NCBI GenBank assembly: GCA_026414365.1
Contig: JAOAJD010000001.1
Span: forward strand, 413,745-477,744
Reading direction: 5' to 3'
Length of the DNA stretch: 64,000 nucleotides
DNA from: Candidatus Iainarchaeum sp.
GTDB lineage: Archaea > Iainarchaeota > Iainarchaeia > Iainarchaeales > SKW153
Shown here: piece after piece, positions 2,114 through 32,317 of the stretch
How the letters are laid out: every line of letters starts with the position of its first letter
Numbering within the stretch: position 1 is the stretch's first letter
Notes under the pieces: generated by a model
The model's input: the letters and a program-made list of their open reading frames with translations, nothing else
Told to the model about the DNA's origin: nothing
Databases searched by the model: none
Made by a program: the position numbers and the translations under genes

Positions 2114-5100
2114 ATGAAAAAGATTCTTTTTGTTTTGTTGCTTTTTGTTTTTTTATTATGCGGGTGTATAGAAAATTCCTATAAAGAATTAAGATACGAG
2201 TGTCTTATCTTAAGTTCTTATTCTTCACAAAGCATAGTTGAATGCAATAATCAGGAAGATTGTTACAATAAGGTGAATAATTTTTTCGGTGTTGATGAGA
2301 AGGAATTTGAATATCCAGCAAATATTTATTTTCATGAATATAAAAATCATTTGGCAAGATCTTGGTTTTATTATAATAAGTCACTAAAGAACATAAGAGA
2401 AATACATAGAATTTGTAATAATACTGATTTGAATGAGTACGAGCTCAAAGATGAGGTCGATGATTTTATAAATAATTTTACTTTTTCTGTGGAGGAAACT
2501 CAAAAAGCAAATAAAAAAGCTATAGAATTAATTATAAGCTTGAAAAAATATTTGGATAAGGAAGAAATACCTCTCACTAAAGAAGAGCCATGGTTCATTA
2601 GTTATTCTATTTTAGAAAAAAACATTCTAATATTAAAAGGTATTGAGAGGATTGACGAAGAAACTTATGTTGGAAGATTTCTTAAAGAGACTAATAGACT
2701 AGATGAATTAGCCAAAAAGGTTGGTTTTCAAAGAAGATTAATGTCTGATTTACCAATAGTGCAATATTTTGACTACTTTGAAAATAAAGTCCCGTATTTT
2801 GAAAACATAGGACCTTTTAATCTTTCTCAATTCTTGAGAGAGTTTATCGACTATATTTCAGAAAGGAGTATACTTGAAGAAGCCAATAGTATTTTACGCT
2901 CCAGTAATGCATTCGAATTTTTCAATATTTATGATTCTCTGGTTGGAAAATCAAATTCTTTACCATCTTTACTTAAAGATAATTTACTCTCTTATATAAA
3001 AGCTAAAAAAATTTTTTACCAAAACATAGATTTTTTGTTTGACTCATTAGATAAGAATATTTTGTACGTTGAAGATAAGTTAAACTATTTATACTCGAAA
3101 GAATTTGACAGGTTGGATTCAAACTTTTTAAAACGTCTTATAGACATATCCCCAAAATCAACATCAATTTCTGCAAAAAACTTCGCGTTTGAATCTTTGG
3201 GCGGAGAAAAAGAAGAATTGGTAAAAAAGTTATATCAACTAAAATCTGAATTTTCTTCGATTAAAGAACAATATTATTTAAACAAGATTTCTTTAGGAAG
3301 ACTACTGCTTTCGCTTAAACAGAATAGTCTAAAAATTTTTGAGATAAAAAATAATGTTGATTTTTTATCATCCGAATTTCTCTTAAATTTAGATGCGATT
3401 TGTAAAGAAAGATTGGAGTTTATCAAAAGAGATGTAAGTCAAGAAAGAGATTATAAATTAATAAGTCTGAGTGCATCACTACTTTTTAATATCGAAAATT
3501 TTGAAAAAGAAAACAAACTAGATAAAAGAATTATTCTTTGTTATGATGCTATCAACAAATACGATGAATACCTTTTTGCAAAAGATTCTTACCAAAGATA
3601 TCTAGCTTTTGAGAAGGCAAAGTTGGATAACTGTTTTGTTTCACTGAAAGAGTTTTTCAAAGATAATAGCAATCAAAAAAATTATCCTGACTCTTTGTTA
3701 CAGAGGTTTAATTATCTAAAGGAGATATTGAAGGACAATAATAACTTGATTTATTTATTAGATAGCTGCGAAGAGTTGAAAAAAGATATCTTAGATTATT
3801 TTTTAGATTCTGAGGATATGAAACAGTTTGTTTATTATTATAAAGAATCCAAGCAATATCTCTCTATTTTACAAAAGTTGAATGCATATATGAATAGACA
3901 ACAAATAAACAGATACAATAATTTAGCAGAGTTAATTAAAACATGTGATTTTTTCGATAATAATGACAACCTAACAATTTTTTTAAAATGTAAGGATCTA
4001 GAAATAAACGTTGTTTATAATAATATAAAATCTCTATTTTATGAAGTATTTATATCATATTTAGAAAAAAAAGCGAATTATGAGATTGTTTGTAGTAGTT
4101 TTCCAGAAATTGATAATAATGTTGACTGTAACATAATAATATCTTTTGTAAATAATATAGCTAATATTGATGAAGACTTTGTTTTTTCTCTGCCAGTTAA
4201 TCTAGATAAAATAACTTCTATTGTTTATAAAGATAACCATATAAAAGAGGTCTTTGTCGATGCCAACAAGATAACGATTGATTTTAGTTTTGTTCCTCTT
4301 GGCAAAACTCTATTAATATTATCTTTCAATTCAATGATTGCTAAATCTTATAATGAGCAAAAGTTAGTTTATGCAACTCTTAGTAATGCAGTTTTCAAAA
4401 GGCAGGTTACTGTTCATATCAAACAATTATATTCAAATGATTTAAAAGGTAAAAACTGTTTTAATCTCAATAATTTTAAAGTTTCTGATGTTTATGTTGT
4501 TTCAGATAGTTTAAAGAGTTACTTCCTAGATGATAATGGCTGTGTTGTTTACATCATAAAACCAAGATTAAATAAAGAAGATGTTTTTATTTATTTTTCA
4601 ATTTTACAGCCATTTGAATATAGTTTTAAATTAGAGAGCCAGAATAGTGATGAGAATTATACTTATTACTTTTATAAGGCCATATTAATGAACAGATTAG
4701 ATGTCGATTTAGAAAATGCAAAGATAGAAATTAATTTTGCCAAAGGTGCTGATAATGTAGATATTTATGATGATTCCTTTACTAAAGTAGTTACAGAGTC
4801 TTTAAATAGTTCGTTAATTTTCAGATCATCGTTTTTGCCAAAACAAAGAAAAACATTCTATATTAGTTTCAAGGTTCGTAACTATCAAGATTTTTGGGTA
4901 AAGAAAATTTCTGACACAATTTCAAAACTCTTGTCTATAAATAAAAAAGATTCAAACCAACTTATAGAAGAATTAAAGTCTTATTATAATAAAGATTTAA
5001 GAGATAACAAAACAATTAGTTCATTGATTGAGTTACTTAATAGATCGGATAATTTTATTAGAAGTTGCCAAATTGAAGAATCGGAGAAGTCAAAGTTAGA

Positions 5101-6190
5101 TGCTTTATATTATGAAGTTTTAGAAAAAAGAAATAAACTAAAAAATAGTTTGGATGTTTTAGAAAGACTTAAACTCATTGAAGATTATAACATTTTAAAC
5201 TCCATATTGCAAAATATTGACCGTGCAATGTTAGATTTTAACAACTATTATGAAAAAAAAGATTATCAGAAAGCAAAAGAGTTGTTGTATTATTCACTGT
5301 CTTTGTTATCTGGGGCATCTGAAAAGTCTTTGCAAAATACATTATTTGATAAATGGATTGAACTTAAAAAGCAATTTGATTTGCTGCTGGCGGATAGTAT
5401 AGGTATTGAAAAGAAAATATTCAAGGAAAAATCAGATGCTTTAGAGAATACTTTTAACAAATATCTCAAAATTAGCGACATAAATTCTGCAGCAGACGTT
5501 TTAAACGAATTTTCGGTTTTACTAAAAAGTTTATCAGAAAGCAATTCGAAGAACAAAGAAAATATCTGCAATGATAACTTCAGAATATATAACGAGAATA
5601 ACGAACTATTGCTAAAATCAGAACAACTATTAACTAAATTATCAGATAACCTTAATTCTTTACCAGATGGTTTTTTTGAATCTATATCTTATGTTCCTCC
5701 TTTCTCCAAATCTGATTTAGATAGTTATTCAAAAAAATTATCACAACAGAGAACAAAAATTTTGTTAATAACAATTGATGAAAATTCTTGTATTGATCAA
5801 AACAATAAGAAGGTTCTTGAGAGTATTAACTCTAATTTAAACGATATTTTCGATAGGATTTCTAGAGATTATAATAAATTAAAAAAAGATGCAGAAGAAG
5901 TAATATTTTTAGCAAAGTTAAAAAAAGATAGTTCTCTGCCCAATAAGAAAGCTGATGAGCTATTTGAAAAAGCGAAAGAATTTTTGAGCAAACAGGAATT
6001 TCTCAAAGCAATAGCATACGCAAAAGCTTCGACAGAAGCATACTCTTTCAGAGAGCCTACTGCAAACCTTTATCTTGCAAATTTTCCATTTTCTATAGTT
6101 TTAATCCTTTTAATTTTGATTCTATTTTTAATATTAAAATTCAGAGAAACAAAAGGGCAAAGAACTGTTAGGATTTTAAGGGACTTTTGA
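2114..6190 (+). CDS. very large (1358 aa) predicted surface protein: lipobox signal peptide plus C-terminal TM anchor
   Basis: N-terminus MKKILFVLLLFVFLLCGC (signal peptide with lipobox-like LCGC). Long Asn/Lys/Glu-rich helical body. C-terminus ANFPF-SIVLILLILILFLIL-KFRETKG. Uninterrupted 4 kb ORF in a stop-codon-rich AT genome. Confidence 0.8.
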   Translation: MKKILFVLLLFVFLLCGCIENSYKELRYECLILSSYSSQSIVECNNQEDCYNKVNNFFGVDEKEFEYPANIYFHEYKNHLARSWFYYNKSLKNIREIHRICNNTDLNEYELKDEVDDFINNFTFSVEETQKANKKAIELIISLKKYLDKEEIPLTKEEPWFISYSILEKNILILKGIERIDEETYVGRFLKETNRLDELAKKVGFQRRLMSDLPIVQYFDYFENKVPYFENIGPFNLSQFLREFIDYISERSILEEANSILRSSNAFEFFNIYDSLVGKSNSLPSLLKDNLLSYIKAKKIFYQNIDFLFDSLDKNILYVEDKLNYLYSKEFDRLDSNFLKRLIDISPKSTSISAKNFAFESLGGEKEELVKKLYQLKSEFSSIKEQYYLNKISLGRLLLSLKQNSLKIFEIKNNVDFLSSEFLLNLDAICKERLEFIKRDVSQERDYKLISLSASLLFNIENFEKENKLDKRIILCYDAINKYDEYLFAKDSYQRYLAFEKAKLDNCFVSLKEFFKDNSNQKNYPDSLLQRFNYLKEILKDNNNLIYLLDSCEELKKDILDYFLDSEDMKQFVYYYKESKQYLSILQKLNAYMNRQQINRYNNLAELIKTCDFFDNNDNLTIFLKCKDLEINVVYNNIKSLFYEVFISYLEKKANYEIVCSSFPEIDNNVDCNIIISFVNNIANIDEDFVFSLPVNLDKITSIVYKDNHIKEVFVDANKITIDFSFVPLGKTLLILSFNSMIAKSYNEQKLVYATLSNAVFKRQVTVHIKQLYSNDLKGKNCFNLNNFKVSDVYVVSDSLKSYFLDDNGCVVYIIKPRLNKEDVFIYFSILQPFEYSFKLESQNSDENYTYYFYKAILMNRLDVDLENAKIEINFAKGADNVDIYDDSFTKVVTESLNSSLIFRSSFLPKQRKTFYISFKVRNYQDFWVKKISDTISKLLSINKKDSNQLIEELKSYYNKDLRDNKTISSLIELLNRSDNFIRSCQIEESEKSKLDALYYEVLEKRNKLKNSLDVLERLKLIEDYNILNSILQNIDRAMLDFNNYYEKKDYQKAKELLYYSLSLLSGASEKSLQNTLFDKWIELKKQFDLLLADSIGIEKKIFKEKSDALENTFNKYLKISDINSAADVLNEFSVLLKSLSESNSKNKENICNDNFRIYNENNELLLKSEQLLTKLSDNLNSLPDGFFESISYVPPFSKSDLDSYSKKLSQQRTKILLITIDENSCIDQNNKKVLESINSNLNDIFDRISRDYNKLKKDAEEVIFLAKLKKDSSLPNKKADELFEKAKEFLSKQEFLKAIAYAKASTEAYSFREPTANLYLANFPFSIVLILLILILFLILKFRETKGQRTVRILRDF

Positions 6191-26763: not shown

Positions 26764-27846
26764 GTGTTTTTGATGGTTTTGAAAATAAAAAACATATACT
26801 TAGGTAATTACAAAAGATTAATGATAATACCTATAGCAATATTTGTTTTGTCTCTTATTTGCATATTTATTTATCCGAGAGTCAGTTTAGGAATAGACTT
26901 TACTGGTGGAAATAGGCTTTTACTTAAGACAGACAAACAAATAAATGCTACAGACTTAAAGAATACGTTACTATTGAAATATCCCCTAAGAGAGCTTTCT
27001 GTTGTAAGTACATCTAATCCTCTCGGTGGATATGGCATAGTGATAGAGTATTCTAAAAACGAGGACTTCGAGATTGTTAATAATAAAATAAATAGTGCTG
27101 CAATCTTAGCAAATTCAAATAAGGAGGAAGCATTTACTGTTTTAAATTCAATCTATGTTATCCTACAAAAATATGATGTTAATGAGAGAGTAAATTCTAA
27201 ACAAATAGAAGAAGCAATCGTTGAGGCCAAATCTTTGGTTTCGGTAGCAAATGAAAATTTCATAAAAGATGTTGAGAGTTTAATAAAGAAAAAATATGGT
27301 GTTTCAAATATAGAAACCCAGAGAAGAGAAGTAGGTGCGTCTTTAGGTAAGGCTTTCATAGAGAGCTCTATTTGGATAGTGTTCTTTAGTTGTTTGGCCA
27401 TATTTGCAGTAGTTTTAATATTCTTTAGAGAAATAATTCCATCTCTAGCAATAATAAGTGCTGCATTAATAGACATCTCTTTTGCTTTAGCAGTTATGTC
27501 AATTGCAGATATCCCCATTTCTTTATCTTCTATTGCATCTTTACTTATGCTATTTGGTTACTCCGTTGATACAGATATTTTATTAACTACAAGGAGTTTG
27601 AAAAGAAAAGAAGGAAGTGTTAGAGAAAGGGCATTTGATAGCATGGTAACAGGTTTAACTATGACAACCACTGCTTTAGCATCACTTTTTGTTATGCTTT
27701 TATTTTCTTATTTATATCAAATATCAGTTATATTCGAAATAGCAATAGTTTTGAGTGCAGGGTTGTTGGCTGATATTCCTGCTACTTGGCTTTTTAATGC
27801 TCCTTTGATAATTTGGTATGTAGAGTCAAAAGGTGTTGTAAAATGA
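26764..27846 (+). CDS. secF: protein-export membrane protein SecF
   Basis: GIDFTGG periplasmic head, then a 6-TM region with VGASLGK... Precedes secD with an ATGA overlap. GTG 26764 or ATG 26773. Confidence 0.88.
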   Translation: MFLMVLKIKNIYLGNYKRLMIIPIAIFVLSLICIFIYPRVSLGIDFTGGNRLLLKTDKQINATDLKNTLLLKYPLRELSVVSTSNPLGGYGIVIEYSKNEDFEIVNNKINSAAILANSNKEEAFTVLNSIYVILQKYDVNERVNSKQIEEAIVEAKSLVSVANENFIKDVESLIKKKYGVSNIETQRREVGASLGKAFIESSIWIVFFSCLAIFAVVLIFFREIIPSLAIISAALIDISFALAVMSIADIPISLSSIASLLMLFGYSVDTDILLTTRSLKRKEGSVRERAFDSMVTGLTMTTTALASLFVMLLFSYLYQISVIFEIAIVLSAGLLADIPATWLFNAPLIIWYVESKGVVK

Positions 27847-29465
27847 CTTCCTTACTGAAGAATTATAAAATACTAATTTTAGTATTCTCCTTACTTTTAG
27901 CAATATCTTTTATTGGAATTTTTGGTGTAAAATTTGGAACTGATTTTAGTGGCGGTACTGTATTTCAGATTAAACTTTTGCACAAAGCAAACCAGCAAGA
28001 AATGCAGACAATTACTTCTGTTATAGAGCACAGGATAAATTCTTTTGGTTTGAAAGATATTACTGTTACCCCAGAAGGTAGCGAGTTTGTTAGAGCAACG
28101 ATTGCAGAAACAGAGCCAGGAAGTATAGAAGAGATAGAAAGAATATTAAGAAAGCAAGGTAAATTTGAGGTTGTTTTTGATGGAAATGTCTTATTTACTG
28201 GTGCAGACATAATACAAATAATAACAGATCCAACACTGGGTTACAAAGTTTACCAAGAAGGAAAAAGTTGGCGATGGGTTCTGCCTTTTGTTATAAAAGA
28301 GAATGCCGCTCAAAACTTTTCTAAGTCTATTTTTCACAGATGTACAATTACAGGTACAAATGAAAAAGGAGAAAGACAGTATGATTGTGATAAAACATAT
28401 TTCTTTATAGATAGACCAAATACAGGTATATTAATAATACCTAAAGAAACATTTGCTGCAGATTCTCTGATTTTCTCAGAGGGTTCTTATATTGCAGGAA
28501 TACCTCAAGATACGGATATTGAAGAATTTCTAACAAACGTTGGTTTGCCATATCTGATAGTTGAAAATGAACTTAATGAAGGGGATATAAATAAACTTTC
28601 TAGTTTAGATAATGAAAATAAGAGAGCTTACATTCCAAAGTCTTTGAGTAAAGGTATACGAGAGAAACTAATTTCTTTAGGATTTGAATTGAAAGAGATT
28701 GAAGAAAGGGAAAATTATCCTTGGGTTTGGATAGCTACTGGTGCTCAAACAATTATATCATTAACACCAAGCGTTACTAACATGGAACCTTATGTTAAGG
28801 ATGTTCAAAATGCTAAGATTTTTTCTAACTTGTTAATTCAAGGAAGTGCTGCAACAAAAGAGGATGCATATAGAGAATTAAAATCAATTAAAGTTATTCT
28901 AGAAACAGGTTCTTTGCCAATTCCTATAGATGATATTTCTAAAGAAGTGATGTCTCCAACCTTAGGTTATGAATTTTTAAACGTTGCTTTAATAATGGGG
29001 ATTTGTTCTTTAATAACAGTTTCATTGGTTGTTTTTTTACGTTATAAATATCTTAATCTAGCAATACCTATAATTTTCACAGCAATAGCAGAAGTTACTT
29101 TAGTTTTAGGTATTGCTGCTTTAATAAACTGGAATTTAGATCTAGCAAGTGTGGCTGGATTGGTTGCAGCAGTTGGTACAGGTGTTAATGATCAAATAGT
29201 TATAACTGATGAACTTATTGCTAGAAAAGAAGAAGAAGTAGCTACTTCTCTGTTGAGTAGAATAAAGAGAGCATTCTTTGTTGTTGTTGCTGCTGCGAGT
29301 ACGACTATTGCTGCTCTCTTACCACTTTTAATCTTAGGTTCTTCTACAAAATTGGTCGGATTTGCTTTTACAACTATCTGTGGTGTCTTAGTAGGTGTTT
29401 TGATTACAAGACCGGCTTATTCTGAAGTTGCTAAAATAATAATAGAAAAAGAGCAAATTAAATAA
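27843..29465 (+). CDS. secD: protein-export membrane protein SecD
   Basis: GTDFSGG, large extracytoplasmic domain, C-terminal TM bundle with GTGVNDQIVITDE. Start placed at the ATG overlapping the secF stop (AATGA), GGTG 7 nt upstream. Confidence 0.88.
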   Translation: MTSLLKNYKILILVFSLLLAISFIGIFGVKFGTDFSGGTVFQIKLLHKANQQEMQTITSVIEHRINSFGLKDITVTPEGSEFVRATIAETEPGSIEEIERILRKQGKFEVVFDGNVLFTGADIIQIITDPTLGYKVYQEGKSWRWVLPFVIKENAAQNFSKSIFHRCTITGTNEKGERQYDCDKTYFFIDRPNTGILIIPKETFAADSLIFSEGSYIAGIPQDTDIEEFLTNVGLPYLIVENELNEGDINKLSSLDNENKRAYIPKSLSKGIREKLISLGFELKEIEERENYPWVWIATGAQTIISLTPSVTNMEPYVKDVQNAKIFSNLLIQGSAATKEDAYRELKSIKVILETGSLPIPIDDISKEVMSPTLGYEFLNVALIMGICSLITVSLVVFLRYKYLNLAIPIIFTAIAEVTLVLGIAALINWNLDLASVAGLVAAVGTGVNDQIVITDELIARKEEEVATSLLSRIKRAFFVVVAAASTTIAALLPLLILGSSTKLVGFAFTTICGVLVGVLITRPAYSEVAKIIIEKEQIK

Positions 29466-29484: not shown

Positions 29485-29997
29485 TTATATCATTTCACTT
29501 ATCTTGCCAGTTTTTTGTGCTAAGTAGTACCAAATTAAAAAAACAGCAAAAAACATTAAGAACCAACTAACAATGTGAGTAATTTCACCATAGTAATTTC
29601 CTAATCTTTTTGCCACCAGAATTATTGTAGAAACTCTGCTAATATTTAATATAAAAATTGCAATTGATGCGACAATTATAAATTCAACTTTTTTACGTGT
29701 GTCTGGCTTTTTCAGGGGAACAACAATCGCAATAAATGCAATAATACTTGTTAACCCAGTACAAAAGTTTGTTATCTCATATGCATAATTATCTACAATA
29801 ATAAAATTTTCTATATTCTGTGAATTTGTTATTTTTGCAACTAAATTAGCTACTATTATTCCCAAAATCTTAGGGTTTATTATACTAACTAGTAATTCTA
29901 AGGCTAAAAATATAAGGGAAAATTTTATCAAAAAAAAAGTTTTTTCTCTTTTGTTTTTGAGATTGCCAAGTTTATTTTTTTTTATTTTTATCACCAA
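29485..29997 (-). CDS. minimal exosortase/archaeosortase-family protein (tentative)
   Basis: 170 aa, polytopic. Membrane-embedded Cys79 in NFCTGLTS, Arg121 in LNISRVST about 42 aa later, His141 in EITHIVSW. Order and spacing fit the exosortase/archaeosortase signature. 7-nt overlap with carS. Confidence 0.6.
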   Translation of the reverse strand: MVIKIKKNKLGNLKNKREKTFFLIKFSLIFLALELLVSIINPKILGIIVANLVAKITNSQNIENFIIVDNYAYEITNFCTGLTSIIAFIAIVVPLKKPDTRKKVEFIIVASIAIFILNISRVSTIILVAKRLGNYYGEITHIVSWFLMFFAVFLIWYYLAQKTGKISEMI

Positions 29998-30509
29998 GGA
30001 ACTTTTTTTATTTTTAGTTTGTATGCCAAATAGTTCGAGAGCTTATGTGCAATCAAAGTAATAATAACTATTGCTAATATCTCGTAAAATGTTGGAGCAT
30101 ACATAATACTACCAAATACCAAACCACCAAAAACAAAATCTAATTGATCTAAAAACAAAACAGGGTTTCCAGGATCAATTTTATTTCTTCTTTTGAAAAA
30201 ACTAGCTACGATATCTCCTATTATCGCTCCTAAAGAAAGCAGAAAGCCAAACAAAACATAATTTTGATAAACTTGCTCAACAGCAGGATTTATCAAGACT
30301 ACTATGAAAGAAGCAAAACTACCAAAGAATACTCCTGCGATAGTACCTCTGATTGTTTTCCCCTTCCCTAATATAGGCTGATTGTCCAACCATTTTTTGC
30401 CAAAATCTAAAGGCATTCCACCGCCAAATAGCATTGCAAAAGAATTAGCAAAATATAATGGTATTATTATCAATATTATTTTTGACATGAGATAACTAAA
30501 ATTTTCCAT
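29991..30509 (-). CDS. carS: CDP-archaeol synthase (CarS, DUF46 family)
   Basis: 172 aa, polytopic. YFANSFAMLFGGG.PLDFG.....ILGKGKTIRG and DQLDFV match the CarS pattern. Confidence 0.8.
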   Translation of the reverse strand: MENFSYLMSKIILIIIPLYFANSFAMLFGGGMPLDFGKKWLDNQPILGKGKTIRGTIAGVFFGSFASFIVVLINPAVEQVYQNYVLFGFLLSLGAIIGDIVASFFKRRNKIDPGNPVLFLDQLDFVFGGLVFGSIMYAPTFYEILAIVIITLIAHKLSNYLAYKLKIKKVPW

Positions 30510-30665
30510 AATAATCTTTCACAATGATATCAATTAAAGGCGCAATGTTAATTAATATTCTCTAAATAATCGATTGTTTTAAATTTTTATTTTTATGAGT
30601 AAATATAAATTTAAAATATTGTTATTAAGGATTTATAAGGATTTATGGAGAGTGTTTAACATAAG

Positions 30666-31652
30666 ATGAGGCTAAAAGATATCTTCTTTGTACTTTTCCT
30701 ATTTATAGTTTTTTTGATAGGTTTTGCAATACTGGCTAGTGTGTTCTTTTTTGGTGATTACCCAAGCCAAGATACGATAGCAGTTATTCCAATAAGAGGA
30801 ATAATTTTGTCTGGAGGAGAAGATAGTTTATTTTCAAACAACATTGCCAAAGCAGATGATATAGTTGAAAATTTAGAGTTAGCTGCATCAGATCCAACAG
30901 TAAAGGCAATTTTATTAGACATTGATAGTGGTGGTGGTTCTGTTGTAGGATCAAGAAGGATAGTAAAGAAAATAGAGTTAATAAAGAAAGATTTTAACAA
31001 ACCGGTTTTTGCTTATATTAACGAAACTGGCGCAAGTGGTGCTTATTATGTAGCATCAGCTGCAGATTTTATTATTGCGGATGAAGGTAGTTTAGTTGGT
31101 AGCATAGGTGCAATAATAATGATACCTGACATAAATGAGTTTTTGTCTAAAGTAGGGGTTAAGATGAATATTATAAGTTCAGGAGATATGAAAGATATAG
31201 GCAGTATTTACAGACCAATGAAGAAAGAAGAAAGAAAATTGTTTGAAGATATAACTGTTGAAATTCATGAAATGTTTAAAGATGATGTTCTAAGGTATAG
31301 AGAAGGCAAAATAAATAAAGAGAGGTTTAATGAAATATCTGATGGAAGAATTTTTTTAGGTAAACAAGCTTTATTGTATGGTCTCATAGATGCAACAGGC
31401 TCTTATGAAGAGGCATTATCTATAATGAAAAATAAACTAGGTATAAAAGGTAAGTTAAAAATTAAGAAATATTATAAAGAAAGAAGCATTATCGAAAAAA
31501 TTTTCTCTGAAAATGCTTACGCACTTAGTCAAGTTATCAAATATAATATCATAGATTCCTTAAATGCAAGCAATAATCTTAGCGATCATCTGTACTATTC
31601 CAATAATTCTCCCATAAACTATTACAATTATGAAGCATATTATATAAAATGA
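30666..31652 (+). CDS. sppA: signal peptide peptidase SppA (36K type)
   Basis: N-terminal TM; S49 peptidase motifs DIDSGGGSV, GASGAYYVASAAD, SGDMKD. Confidence 0.85.
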   Translation: MRLKDIFFVLFLFIVFLIGFAILASVFFFGDYPSQDTIAVIPIRGIILSGGEDSLFSNNIAKADDIVENLELAASDPTVKAILLDIDSGGGSVVGSRRIVKKIELIKKDFNKPVFAYINETGASGAYYVASAADFIIADEGSLVGSIGAIIMIPDINEFLSKVGVKMNIISSGDMKDIGSIYRPMKKEERKLFEDITVEIHEMFKDDVLRYREGKINKERFNEISDGRIFLGKQALLYGLIDATGSYEEALSIMKNKLGIKGKLKIKKYYKERSIIEKIFSENAYALSQVIKYNIIDSLNASNNLSDHLYYSNNSPINYYNYEAYYIK

Positions 31653-32317
31653 TTAAACATTGTTTGCGCAAATACGGCTGCACTTAGAACTGCTAAAAAG
31701 TTTACTGAATTATTATCTATTAACTTCCTATTTTCAAGTTCAGCTCCAAGTATACTATCTATTATAGAACCAAAAACTCCAGCAACTGTTATTATAACAA
31801 AAGCAATAATATTTTTTTCTATTAAAAAAAAGTATGTTGATGCAATAATAATAGCGCCTATTAGACCACATAATGTTCCTTCTAAAGTAATACCACCATC
31901 AGTGCCTATCTTAACTATTTTTTTTGGATTAGTTATTAGTCTTGGAGATATTTTTGTCATCATACCAAGTTCCGAAGACATAGTATCACTTAATGCTGCA
32001 GCCATTGCTCCAAAAAAAGCAGGTTTGTAACCAAAAGCTATTGCCATTACTGCAGGCAAACCATTACCAATTATATTAAATATATCTCTTCTTTCATGTT
32101 TTTCTTTATTTTCGAGTCTCCCAATGTAAGTACTAATCTCAGCCAGAACGAAAAATATAATCATAGTAAAAAATGCAGACAAACCACCGAAATAAAATAC
32201 AATTAAACCGAACATGTTAGCTAAAAGTATACCTCTTAGTGACATTAACTTTTTATAATATGTAATAAGAGATATAATAATTTGGGTAATTGCTACTATA
32301 AAAGAGCTGTCAATCAT
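31640..32317 (-). CDS. DUF92/TMEM19-family integral membrane protein
   Basis: 225 aa, polytopic. GTDGGITLEGTLCG and glycine-rich helices typical of the DUF92 (TIGR00297-like) family. Confidence 0.7.
   Translation of the reverse strand: MIDSSFIVAITQIIISLITYYKKLMSLRGILLANMFGLIVFYFGGLSAFFTMIIFFVLAEISTYIGRLENKEKHERRDIFNIIGNGLPAVMAIAFGYKPAFFGAMAAALSDTMSSELGMMTKISPRLITNPKKIVKIGTDGGITLEGTLCGLIGAIIIASTYFFLIEKNIIAFVIITVAGVFGSIIDSILGAELENRKLIDNNSVNFLAVLSAAVFAQTMFNHFI

What the first reader, a model, noticed from the sequence alone, without database searches (positions are those of the whole stretch)
29485..30509. 170-aa mini archaeosortase-like protein translationally coupled to CDP-archaeol synthase
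The ORF at 29485-29997 overlaps the carS stop by 7 nt and has no SD of its own, so it is probably co-translated. It is a small polytopic protein with Cys79 in NFCTGLTS, Arg121 in LNISRVST (42 aa later) and His141 in EITHIVSW. That matches the order and spacing of the exosortase/archaeosortase transpeptidase signature, in roughly half the length of ArtA-type enzymes. In haloarchaea, archaeosortase action is linked to C-terminal lipid attachment and depends on archaeal phospholipid biosynthesis. A fixed operon of a lipid-precursor enzyme with a minimal sortase-like enzyme would be a compact version of that link. The nearby SppA (30666-31652) adds a third membrane-protein-processing gene.
Basis: partly seen in the sequence, partly recalled or inferred. 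Interest (0 to 1): 0.6.

Follow-up and report, generated by a model that had tools for sequence, protein, structure and literature searches.

The report
Small archaeosortase gene coupled to carS
A small membrane enzyme of the archaeosortase family, which in other archaea cuts surface proteins and fixes them to a lipid, sits directly behind the lipid-activating gene carS in nearly all relatives of this tiny archaeon, and those genomes carry a matching, uncatalogued tail signal on surface proteins.

Summary
The ORF is real and belongs to the exosortase/archaeosortase family (TIGR04178 50.2 bits, cut-off 23). It reaches no named subfamily. Cys79 and Arg121 are invariant and His141 is at least 90% conserved in 60 homologues. 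Its start lies on the carS stop: TTG, or more likely GTG, which gives a GTGA overlap.

The carS-then-archaeosortase arrangement holds in 145 of 148 related genomes examined. All belong to one DPANN phylum, and NCBI names some relatives Diapherotrites or Iainarchaeum. Relatives carry an uncatalogued C-terminal signal on large secreted proteins: [VI]-P-[ED]-x-N, about 18 uncharged residues, then a Lys/Arg tail. The window's own genome (68.5% complete) has one such protein, outside the window.

The functional link to CarS is inferred, not shown:
- Four lineages lost the sortase but kept carS.
- One family lost carS but kept a diverged sortase.
- No PssD-type route to archaetidylethanolamine was found, only an archaetidylinositol-phosphate-synthase-like enzyme.

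Small archaeosortases and a lipid-gene neighbourhood (artA-pssA-pssD) are already known, so this is a new member of a known kind. Earlier notes of this scan report the same gene pair and the same tail in other Iainarchaeota genomes.

The parts
29485..29997 (-). Small archaeosortase-family gene (170 aa from TTG 29997, or 169 aa from GTG 29994). Unnamed subfamily, called art1 in this report.
   Evidence: TIGR04178 50.2 bits (cut-off 23) and PF09721 35.5 bits (cut-off 25.7). C79, N118 and R121 invariant, H141 at least 90% conserved, in 60 homologues. AlphaFold2 model with pLDDT 92.6.
29991..30509 (-). carS, CDP-archaeol synthase (172 aa)
   Evidence: NF003114 187.1 bits (cut-off 148) and PF01864 155.9 bits.
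29991..29997 (-). Stop/start junction TTGGTGA. The carS TGA overlaps the art1 start by 7 nt (TTG) or 4 nt (GTG).
   Evidence: Sequence read. In 15 of 19 co-directional loci (the own genome plus 18 relatives) a start codon lies within -7 to +9 nt of the carS stop.
30510..30665 (.). AT-rich divergent spacer between carS and sppA. Presumed promoter region for the carS-art1 pair.
   Evidence: Inference from gene layout only. No archaeal promoter tool was available.
30666..31652 (+). sppA, signal peptide peptidase (328 aa). Conserved neighbour; membership of the system is unproven.
   Evidence: TIGR00706 181.2 bits (cut-off 155.45). Lies next to carS in 13 of 19 loci from relatives.
31640..32317 (-). 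DUF92 / TIGR00297 integral membrane protein (225 aa). Conserved neighbour.
   Evidence: PF01940 160.5 bits. Seen in the same block in relatives.
26764..29465 (+). secF (26764-27846) and secD (27813-29465), convergent with art1. They form the conserved flank of the block.
   Evidence: Best NCBIfam matches are SecF (199.6 bits) and SecD (330.5 bits), both below the equivalog cut-offs. secD lies beside art1 in 17 of 19 loci from relatives.

Best explanation
The ORF encodes a catalytically competent, small polytopic membrane cysteine transpeptidase/protease of the exosortase/archaeosortase family. It is transcribed, and probably translated, together with carS.

Shown: family membership, the conserved Cys/Arg/His, the near-universal carS-art1 gene pair, and a conserved C-terminal tripartite signal in the same clade.

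Inferred: art1 recognises secreted proteins that end in [VI]-P-[ED]-x-N, followed by about 18 uncharged residues and a Lys/Arg tail. It would cut off the membrane helix through a Cys79 acyl-enzyme.

Inferred by analogy with Haloferax ArtA: it then passes the new C-terminus to a membrane lipid derived from the CDP-archaeol that CarS makes. Co-expression with carS would tie the supply of anchor lipid to the supply of sorting enzyme. The acceptor lipid is unknown. It is unlikely to be archaetidylethanolamine made by PssA/PssD, because no PssD was found.
For: Family and fold:
- TIGR04178 and PF09721 score above their cut-offs.
- All 60 aligned homologues hit TIGR04178.
- C79 and R121 are invariant and H141 is at least 90% conserved.
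- The AlphaFold2 model is confident (pLDDT 92.6, pTM 0.84): helices 16-40, 82-92, 100-132 and 134-162, plus a short helix (43-57) and three short strands between residues 43 and 74. With the basic N-terminus, the basic loop 93-99 and the C-terminus taken as cytoplasmic (my reading), C79, R121 and H141 fall at the outer ends of helices.

Gene pair:
- carS lies directly upstream on the same strand in 134 of 136 genomes where both places were listed. Ten of 12 further genomes fetched also have the pair. Together 145 of 148 have it within 1 kb.
- This includes two genomes of other orders in the class (G213, G212).

Signal:
- Eight tails from 6 genomes align as A-[IV]-P-[ED]-T/S-S/N, then a hydrophobic stretch, then a basic tail.
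- Of 40 profile hits fetched from other genomes, 29 have [VI]P[ED] within 40 residues of the stop, 10 have near variants and 1 has none.
- At E <= 1e-4 the tail profile hits 53 of 151 genomes with a high-scoring art1, against 3 of 58 others.
- At least 10 genomes with a single archaeosortase match still have a tail hit at E <= 1e-4: G156, G023, G143, G166, G177, G111, G114, G056, G123 and G035.
- In 10 genomes a tail hit lies 2.9-4.6 kb from art1 (coordinates compared by eye).
- The own genome has one archaeosortase gene and one protein with the signal: 325 aa, ending in SIPDINEW, a hydrophobic stretch and a basic tail, at G000:C11:400343-401320.

Precedent:
- artA lies next to pssA/pssD in Methanosarcina, and HvPssA/HvPssD are needed for ArtA processing and lipidation (PMC7157517, passages read).
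Against: - No cleavage or lipidation has been shown for any member of this subfamily.
- The tail/enzyme co-occurrence counts related genomes and is not phylogenetically independent. The profile was built from art1-bearing lineages.
- Family f30 has art1 in 17 of 18 genomes but no tail hit at E <= 1e-4 in any of the 18.
- Four genomes keep carS but have lost art1 from the slot: G011, G012, G022 and G025.
- Family f3 has no carS in 0 of 22 genomes. G003 also has no CDP-alcohol transferase. Yet G003 and G083 keep a diverged archaeosortase with Cys, N-x-x-R and H-x-x-x-W in the same secD/DUF92 slot. The enzyme therefore does not need a genome-encoded CarS.
- The whole block secF-secD / art1-carS / sppA / DUF92 / rps3ae is syntenic, so part of the adjacency may be inherited gene order.
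- No PS decarboxylase was found in the own genome or in 5 relatives. The only CDP-alcohol transferase is most like archaetidylinositol-phosphate synthase. The ArtA/PssA/PssD model cannot be carried over as it stands.
- In the own genome only one candidate substrate was found.
Confidence: 0.55

Rival explanations
1. art1 is a maturation or release protease that only removes the C-terminal anchor and attaches no lipid. Its place behind carS reflects co-regulation within a conserved membrane-biogenesis block (secDF, sppA, DUF92, carS), not a shared biochemical pathway.
For: - The whole block is syntenic across families.
- Either gene can be lost alone.
- No amine-bearing lipid pathway (PssD, PIG-L) was found.
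Against: - The pair is co-directional with overlapping or abutting stop and start in most loci. That is tighter than mere neighbourhood.
- Neighbours such as sppA and DUF92 vary in order and strand.
- In the one studied archaeosortase, cleavage and lipidation are coupled (PMC7157517).
Confidence: 0.25
2. The [VI]P[ED]xN tails are not art1 substrates. They are plain membrane anchors, or they are handled by the second archaeosortase paralogue that lies beside type-IV-pilus-like genes in many relatives. art1 would then act on something not yet recognised.
For: - Most relatives have two archaeosortase-family matches. In G016 the second lies next to pilus-type genes.
- Family f30 has art1 but no detected tails.
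- The f3 genome G080, which lacks a high-scoring art1, has one VPD-type tail.
Against: - At least 10 genomes with one archaeosortase match still have tails.
- The own genome has only art1 and one tail.
- G003 has a diverged art1 plus a second paralogue and no [VI]P[ED] tail in its complete contig.
Confidence: 0.12
3. The protein is not a protease here. It would be an accessory of CarS or a lipid-handling membrane protein that has kept the archaeosortase fold.
For: Near-obligate coupling to carS.
Against: - The catalytic Cys/Arg/His are invariant or nearly so.
- A diverged orthologue persists with these residues in genomes without carS.
Confidence: 0.05

Closest known systems
Archaeosortase A (ArtA, TIGR04125) with PGF-CTERM substrates and PssA/PssD, in Haloferax volcanii and Methanosarcina
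   Same: - Same superfamily signature with conserved Cys and Arg.
- Substrates with a motif, a membrane helix and a basic tail.
- The gene sits next to a polar-lipid biosynthesis gene (PMC7157517 passages).
   Different: - 170 aa against a 271-position ArtA profile, scoring 26.6 bits against a cut-off of 75.
- The signal is [VI]P[ED]xN, not PGF.
- The partner is carS, one step upstream of PssA.
- No PssD was found. The only CDP-alcohol transferase is archaetidylinositol-phosphate-synthase-like.
Named small archaeosortases and exosortases: ArtD (TIGR04175), ArtE (TIGR04124), ArtF (TIGR04293), pacearchaeosortase (NF033505), XrtX (NF046081)
   Same: Similar size (profiles of 150-168 positions). 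The matches run along the whole length.
   Different: - None reaches its cut-off: ArtD 38.5 of 125, XrtX 36 of 170, ArtE 34.5 of 95, pacearchaeosortase 21.8 of 80, ArtF 19.3 of 150.
- Across the 60 homologues the best subfamily E-value was 2.9e-14, for ArtD.
- I could not read the sorting signals and neighbourhoods of these subfamilies, because Haft et al. 2012 is not held.
PEP-CTERM / exosortase (EpsH, XrtA) of bacteria
   Same: Same enzyme superfamily. The signal has a Pro-Glu core just before a membrane helix and a basic tail. The V-P-E-P consensus of PEP-CTERM is recalled, not taken from a call.
   Different: - No PEP-CTERM domain model matched the tails. Only one of 8 tails gave a weak hit (E 0.066) to a PEP-CTERM protein family, NF038129.
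- Position +2 after Glu/Asp is Asn, not Pro.
- Archaeal lipids, and no EPS locus.
Eukaryotic GPI transamidase (a functional analogue only; recalled)
   Same: A Cys enzyme removes a C-terminal hydrophobic signal and joins the protein to a lipid. The only head-group enzyme found here is inositol-type.
   Different: No homology. No PIG-L-type deacetylase was found. The chemistry here is unknown.

Membership tests
Exosortase/archaeosortase superfamily (TIGR04178, PF09721) | Signature-region HMM above the curated cut-off | tested here: met
   TIGR04178 50.2 bits (cut-off 23) and PF09721 35.5 bits (cut-off 25.7). All 60 of 60 homologues hit TIGR04178.
Exosortase/archaeosortase superfamily (TIGR04178, PF09721) | Conserved Cys, Arg and His near helix ends | tested here: met
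   C79 and R121 invariant and H141 at least 90% conserved in 60 sequences. Positions relative to helices come from the model. The sidedness is my inference.
Exosortase/archaeosortase superfamily (TIGR04178, PF09721) | Polytopic membrane protein | tested here: met
   AlphaFold2 model with four long hydrophobic helices, pLDDT 92.6.
Exosortase/archaeosortase superfamily (TIGR04178, PF09721) | Cognate C-terminal tripartite sorting signal in the same genomes | tested here: inconclusive
   A clear [VI]P[ED]xN + membrane helix + basic tail in relatives, with co-occurrence of 53 of 151 against 3 of 58. Only one such protein in the own genome, and family f30 is an exception.
Exosortase/archaeosortase superfamily (TIGR04178, PF09721) | Cys-dependent cleavage or transpeptidation of the signal | not testable with these tools
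   Needs biochemistry or proteomics.
Archaeosortase A (ArtA, TIGR04125) | Subfamily HMM above its cut-off | tested here: not met
   26.6 bits against a cut-off of 75.
Archaeosortase A (ArtA, TIGR04125) | PGF-CTERM substrates | tested here: not met
   No CTERM domain model hit in 4 candidate proteins of the own genome or 10 of G016 at E <= 10. HMMER filters may hide very weak hits.
Archaeosortase A (ArtA, TIGR04125) | PssA/PssD partners | tested here: not met
   PF02666 not found in the own genome (68.5% complete) or in 5 relatives. The single CDP-alcohol transferase scores 22 bits against archaetidylserine synthase (cut-off 240).
ArtD / ArtE / ArtF / pacearchaeosortase | Subfamily HMM above its cut-off | tested here: not met
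   38.5 of 125, 34.5 of 95, 19.3 of 150 and 21.8 of 80 bits.
CDP-archaeol synthase (CarS), for the upstream gene | Equivalog HMM above its cut-off | tested here: met
   NF003114 187.1 bits (cut-off 148).

The most novel reading that the evidence does not exclude
In this phylum the archaeosortase anchors surface proteins by a route that does not use PssA/PssD. The acceptor would be a CDP-archaeol-derived lipid other than archaetidylethanolamine. The only head-group enzyme found points to an inositol lipid, which would make this a prokaryotic counterpart of GPI-type anchoring. The stop/start overlap with carS would keep enzyme and lipid donor in step.
Probability: 0.15. Interest if true: 0.8.

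Novelty: new member of a known kind. Interest (0 to 1): 0.45.

Why it matters
How archaeosortases attach lipid is still open. The only experimental system (Haloferax ArtA) points to PssA/PssD and archaetidylethanolamine.

This finding adds a whole phylum of small DPANN archaea with three relevant features:
- A minimal archaeosortase sits directly behind carS.
- No PssD was found in any of the six genomes searched.
- The clade has its own uncatalogued sorting tail.

Together these give a second, independent genomic link between archaeosortases and CDP-archaeol chemistry, and a compact enzyme/signal pair (170 aa plus a tail of about 26 residues) that could be tested in a heterologous host. The tail also helps annotation, because it marks the probable surface proteome of organisms that likely depend on cell contact.

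Tried and rejected
1. Co-loss of carS and art1 in families f3, f31 and f7. I first read the weak archaeosortase scores there, together with the absence of carS, as joint loss. Reading G003 and G083 showed a diverged art1 still in the secD/DUF92 slot, with carS and sppA deleted. I withdrew the co-loss argument. In f31 the archaeosortase-like gene lies elsewhere, next to an orc1-like gene.

2. A GlcN-archaetidylinositol (GPI-core-like) acceptor. No PIG-L family deacetylase was found in the own genome or in 5 relatives, so this is not supported.

3. Known sorting domains. No NCBIfam CTERM model matched candidate substrates or the isolated tails beyond single weak hits: JDVT-CTERM E 0.013 and NF038129 E 0.066, each in 1 of 8 tails.

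4. It has a C-terminal helix and a basic tail but no [VI]P[ED] motif and no family hit. It is not counted as a substrate.

5. Word-based homologue search found only the protein itself. The exhaustive HMMER search was needed (130 hits at E <= 0.001).

6. No solved structure resembles the protein, by sequence profile or by Foldseek on the model (best E 1.5).

7. The search for related loci in genome contigs failed with the alignment and found nothing with the single protein.

8. Literature. I searched archaeosortase with 'CDP-archaeol synthase' (3 papers), with DPANN (7 papers), with Woesearchaeota/Pacearchaeota/Nanoarchaeota names (20 of 310 listed) and with Diapherotrites/Iainarchaeota names (15 of 71 listed). 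No listed paper describes a carS-archaeosortase operon or this tail. Haft et al. 2012 (PMC3256604) is not held, so statements about ArtD/ArtE biology are recalled or taken from NCBIfam model names. Supplements were closed and were not consulted.

9. The 40 kb around art1 in G030 (family f30) contains no tail-type protein. The signal used in f30 remains unknown.
Full report
**What is in the sequence.**
Two ORFs lie head to tail on the minus strand: 29991-30509 (172 aa) and 29485-29997 (170 aa). No ORF of 50 aa or more lies on the opposite strand within 29485-30509.

The upstream product is CDP-archaeol synthase (NF003114 187.1 bits, cut-off 148; PF01864 155.9 bits). The junction reads TTGGTGA on the coding strand. 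The following GTG would give a 4-nt GTGA overlap. The public gene call (P0001, 169 aa) fits the GTG. No Shine-Dalgarno-like sequence precedes either start (by eye).

The flanks are:
- secF and secD, convergent.
- sppA, divergent (TIGR00706 181.2 bits, cut-off 155.45).
- A DUF92/TIGR00297 membrane protein.
- rps3ae.

**What the small protein is.**
It scores 50.2 bits on the exosortase/archaeosortase signature TIGR04178 (cut-off 23) and 35.5 bits on PF09721 (cut-off 25.7). No named subfamily reaches its cut-off: ArtD 38.5 of 125, XrtX 36 of 170, ArtE 34.5 of 95, ArtA 26.6 of 75, pacearchaeosortase 21.8 of 80.

A word-based search found only the protein itself. An exhaustive HMMER search found 130 representatives at E <= 0.001 and 54 at E <= 1e-10. 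I aligned 59 of these with the query. C79, G81, N118, R121 and W145 are invariant, and H141 is at least 90% conserved. All 60 hit TIGR04178, and none looked like a member of a named subfamily (best subfamily E-value 2.9e-14, ArtD).

The AlphaFold2 model from this alignment is confident (pLDDT 92.6, pTM 0.84). It has helices at 16-40, 43-57, 82-92, 100-132 and 134-162, and three short strands at 60-74. If the Lys/Arg-rich N-terminus, loop 93-99 and C-terminus face the cytoplasm (my inference), then Cys79, Arg121 and His141 sit near the outer ends of helices. No solved structure resembles it, by sequence profile or by Foldseek.

Source names of three relatives are 'exosortase/archaeosortase family protein' or 'hypothetical protein', from Candidatus Iainarchaeum or Diapherotrites MAGs. 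Public annotation therefore already carries the generic family name.

**The gene pair.**
The own genome (578,882 bases, 68.5% complete) has one archaeosortase-family gene. In 19 loci from 19 related genomes, carS lies next to the homologue in all 19. It is on the same strand and upstream in 18.

I then searched 215 genomes of the phylum. About 195 were from one order and 19 from other orders of the class.
- The family profile matched 208 of 215.
- carS matched 176 of 215 at E <= 1e-10.
- Both places were listed for 136 genomes. The two genes lie within 1 kb in 135, and carS is upstream on the same strand in 134. G037 is inverted, and G123 has a 1,050-nt insert.
- For 13 genomes only the sortase place was listed. 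I fetched 12 of them. Ten have carS adjacent (three cut by contig ends, one in two pieces). G122 has only a carS fragment 1.5 kb away. G117 has none within 1.9 kb. G116, at a contig edge, was not fetched.
- Together this gives 145 of 148.
- Two genomes of other orders (G213, G212) share the arrangement.
- In 15 of 19 co-directional loci a start codon lies within -7 to +9 nt of the carS stop.

**Exceptions matter.**
Four genomes (G011, G012, G022, G025) keep carS but have lost the sortase from the slot. G014 only appeared to lack it, because its contig ends there.

Family f3 has no carS in any of 22 genomes. G003 also has no CDP-alcohol transferase. Even so, G003 and G083 keep a diverged 141-143-aa archaeosortase between secD and DUF92. 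It retains Cys, N-x-x-R and H-x-x-x-W and scores 32.5 bits on TIGR04178. My earlier reading of joint loss was therefore wrong. Neither gene strictly needs the other to be encoded in the same genome.

**Substrates.**
In the own genome, four secreted-looking proteins have a C-terminal helix and a basic tail. None matches a known CTERM model.

To find a signal I read three genomes: the whole contig of G016 (which has the pair), the whole contig of G003 (f3) and 300 kb of G156.
- G016 has two large proteins ending in AIPETS, a 15-residue hydrophobic stretch and a basic tail.
- Homologues in G020, G018 and G055 end in VPETS, VPDMS and VPETD plus the same kind of tail.
- G156 has TIPDANP and AIPDSNP tails.
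- The own genome's 325-aa protein (G000:C11:400343-401320, about 12.4 kb before the window) ends in SIPDINEW plus a helix and a basic tail.

The eight tails align cleanly. A profile built from them matched 144 of 215 genomes at E <= 0.1.

I fetched 40 of the 150 listed hits; 147 more were not listed. I chose the top-ranked hits outside the training set, some near art1, and two from f3. All 40 are at the very end of an open frame. Twenty-nine have [VI]P[ED] within 40 residues of the stop. Ten have near variants: LPE, [VI]PG, TPE, APE, LAE, VDE, or IPE with a longer tail. One, from f3 genome G083, has no motif. The consensus is [VI]-P-[ED]-[T/S/..]-N-[P/L], then 16-22 uncharged residues, then Lys/Arg. 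No NCBIfam model covers it.

**Linking tail and enzyme.**
- At E <= 1e-4 the tail profile hits 53 of 151 genomes whose archaeosortase scores E <= 1e-30, against 3 of 58 others. The six training genomes were left out.
- Of those three, two are fragmentary members of art1-bearing families, and the third (G083) is the motif-less hit.
- These genomes are related and the profile comes from art1 lineages, so the contrast overstates independence.
- Family f30 is a counter-example: art1 in 17 of 18 genomes, tails in 0 of 18.
- The 40 kb around art1 in G030 holds no tail.
- At least ten genomes with only one archaeosortase match have a tail hit.
- In ten genomes a tail hit lies 2.9-4.6 kb from art1 (compared by eye).
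- G003 has no [VI]P[ED] tail in its complete contig.

**Lipid side.**
The own genome encodes GGGP synthase, four UbiA-family enzymes, CarS and a single CDP-alcohol transferase. That transferase lies next to inositol-3-phosphate synthase. It is most like archaetidylinositol-phosphate synthase (139.5 bits, cut-off 180), and it scores only 22 bits against archaetidylserine synthase.

G016, G156, G030 and G015 each have one CDP-alcohol transferase. In G016 and G156 it is also of the inositol type. No PS decarboxylase and no PIG-L deacetylase was found in any of the six genomes.

In Haloferax, PssA and PssD are needed for ArtA-dependent cleavage and lipidation, and artA lies next to pssA/pssD in Methanosarcina (PMC7157517, passages; reviews PMC6098224 and PMC9385802, passages). 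The present system shares the theme of a sortase next to a CDP-archaeol pathway gene, but the proposed ethanolamine route was not found here.

**Verdict.**
The most likely function is C-terminal processing of [VI]P[ED]xN-tailed surface proteins, with attachment to a CarS-dependent lipid as an unproven second step.

Small archaeosortases, lineage-specific sorting tails and lipid-gene neighbourhoods are all known kinds of thing. This is therefore a new, unnamed member with an unusually tight partner gene.

Earlier notes of this scan report the same gene pair and the same Val/Ile-Pro-Asp-x-Asn tail on other Iainarchaeota genomes. I reached both results before reading those notes, and they agree.

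Noticed in passing
window 31640-32317 (-): The DUF92/TIGR00297 membrane protein overlaps the 3' end of sppA by 13 nt and travels with carS/sppA in relatives. The family is, from memory, related to plant phytyl-phosphate kinase VTE6, so it may be an isoprenoid-phosphate kinase that belongs to the same lipid theme.
   Followed up: partly
L057:13810-14367 (G016:C1:653810-654367): A second, more distant archaeosortase paralogue (185 aa, TIGR04178 39.7 bits) lies beside a type-IV-pilus-like gene cluster. Most relatives have such a second match. None was found in the window's own incomplete genome.
   Followed up: partly
G003:C1:803286-807788 (L140): In family f3 the block secF-secD / sortase / DUF92 / rps3ae is kept, but carS and sppA are deleted. 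G003 also lacks any CDP-alcohol transferase, which suggests complete reliance on foreign polar lipids. Three of its tail-anchored secreted proteins have Asn-Asn directly before the helix, which may be a different signal or AT-bias.
   Followed up: partly
window 2114-6190 (+): A 1358-aa protein has a lipobox-like N-terminus and a C-terminal helix plus basic tail, but no [VI]P[ED] motif. It has no Pfam or NCBIfam hit.
   Followed up: partly
L197:296-2022 (G000:C11:375385-377111): Inositol-3-phosphate synthase (477.7 bits, below its cut-off) is followed directly by an archaetidylinositol-phosphate-synthase-like gene. This is the only CDP-alcohol transferase found in the genome.
   Followed up: yes
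L022 (G000:C11:254414-256312): A 632-aa secreted transglutaminase-core protein (PF01841 60.8 bits) with a C-terminal helix and a short basic tail. It lacks the clade's motif.
   Followed up: no
L221 (G099:C67), L208 (G122:C38), L211 (G123:C52): carS is split into two pieces in G099. Only a 35-residue carS fragment lies 1.5 kb from the sortase in G122. About 1 kb is inserted between carS and the sortase in G123. These may be frameshifts, insertions or assembly errors.
   Followed up: no
tails in L157-L196: The residues just before many tails follow an Asn-Asn ... aromatic-x-Val pattern, as in the last strand of CARDB/DUF11-like Ig domains (recalled). The tail-bearing proteins may therefore share a terminal domain as well as the signal.
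   Followed up: no
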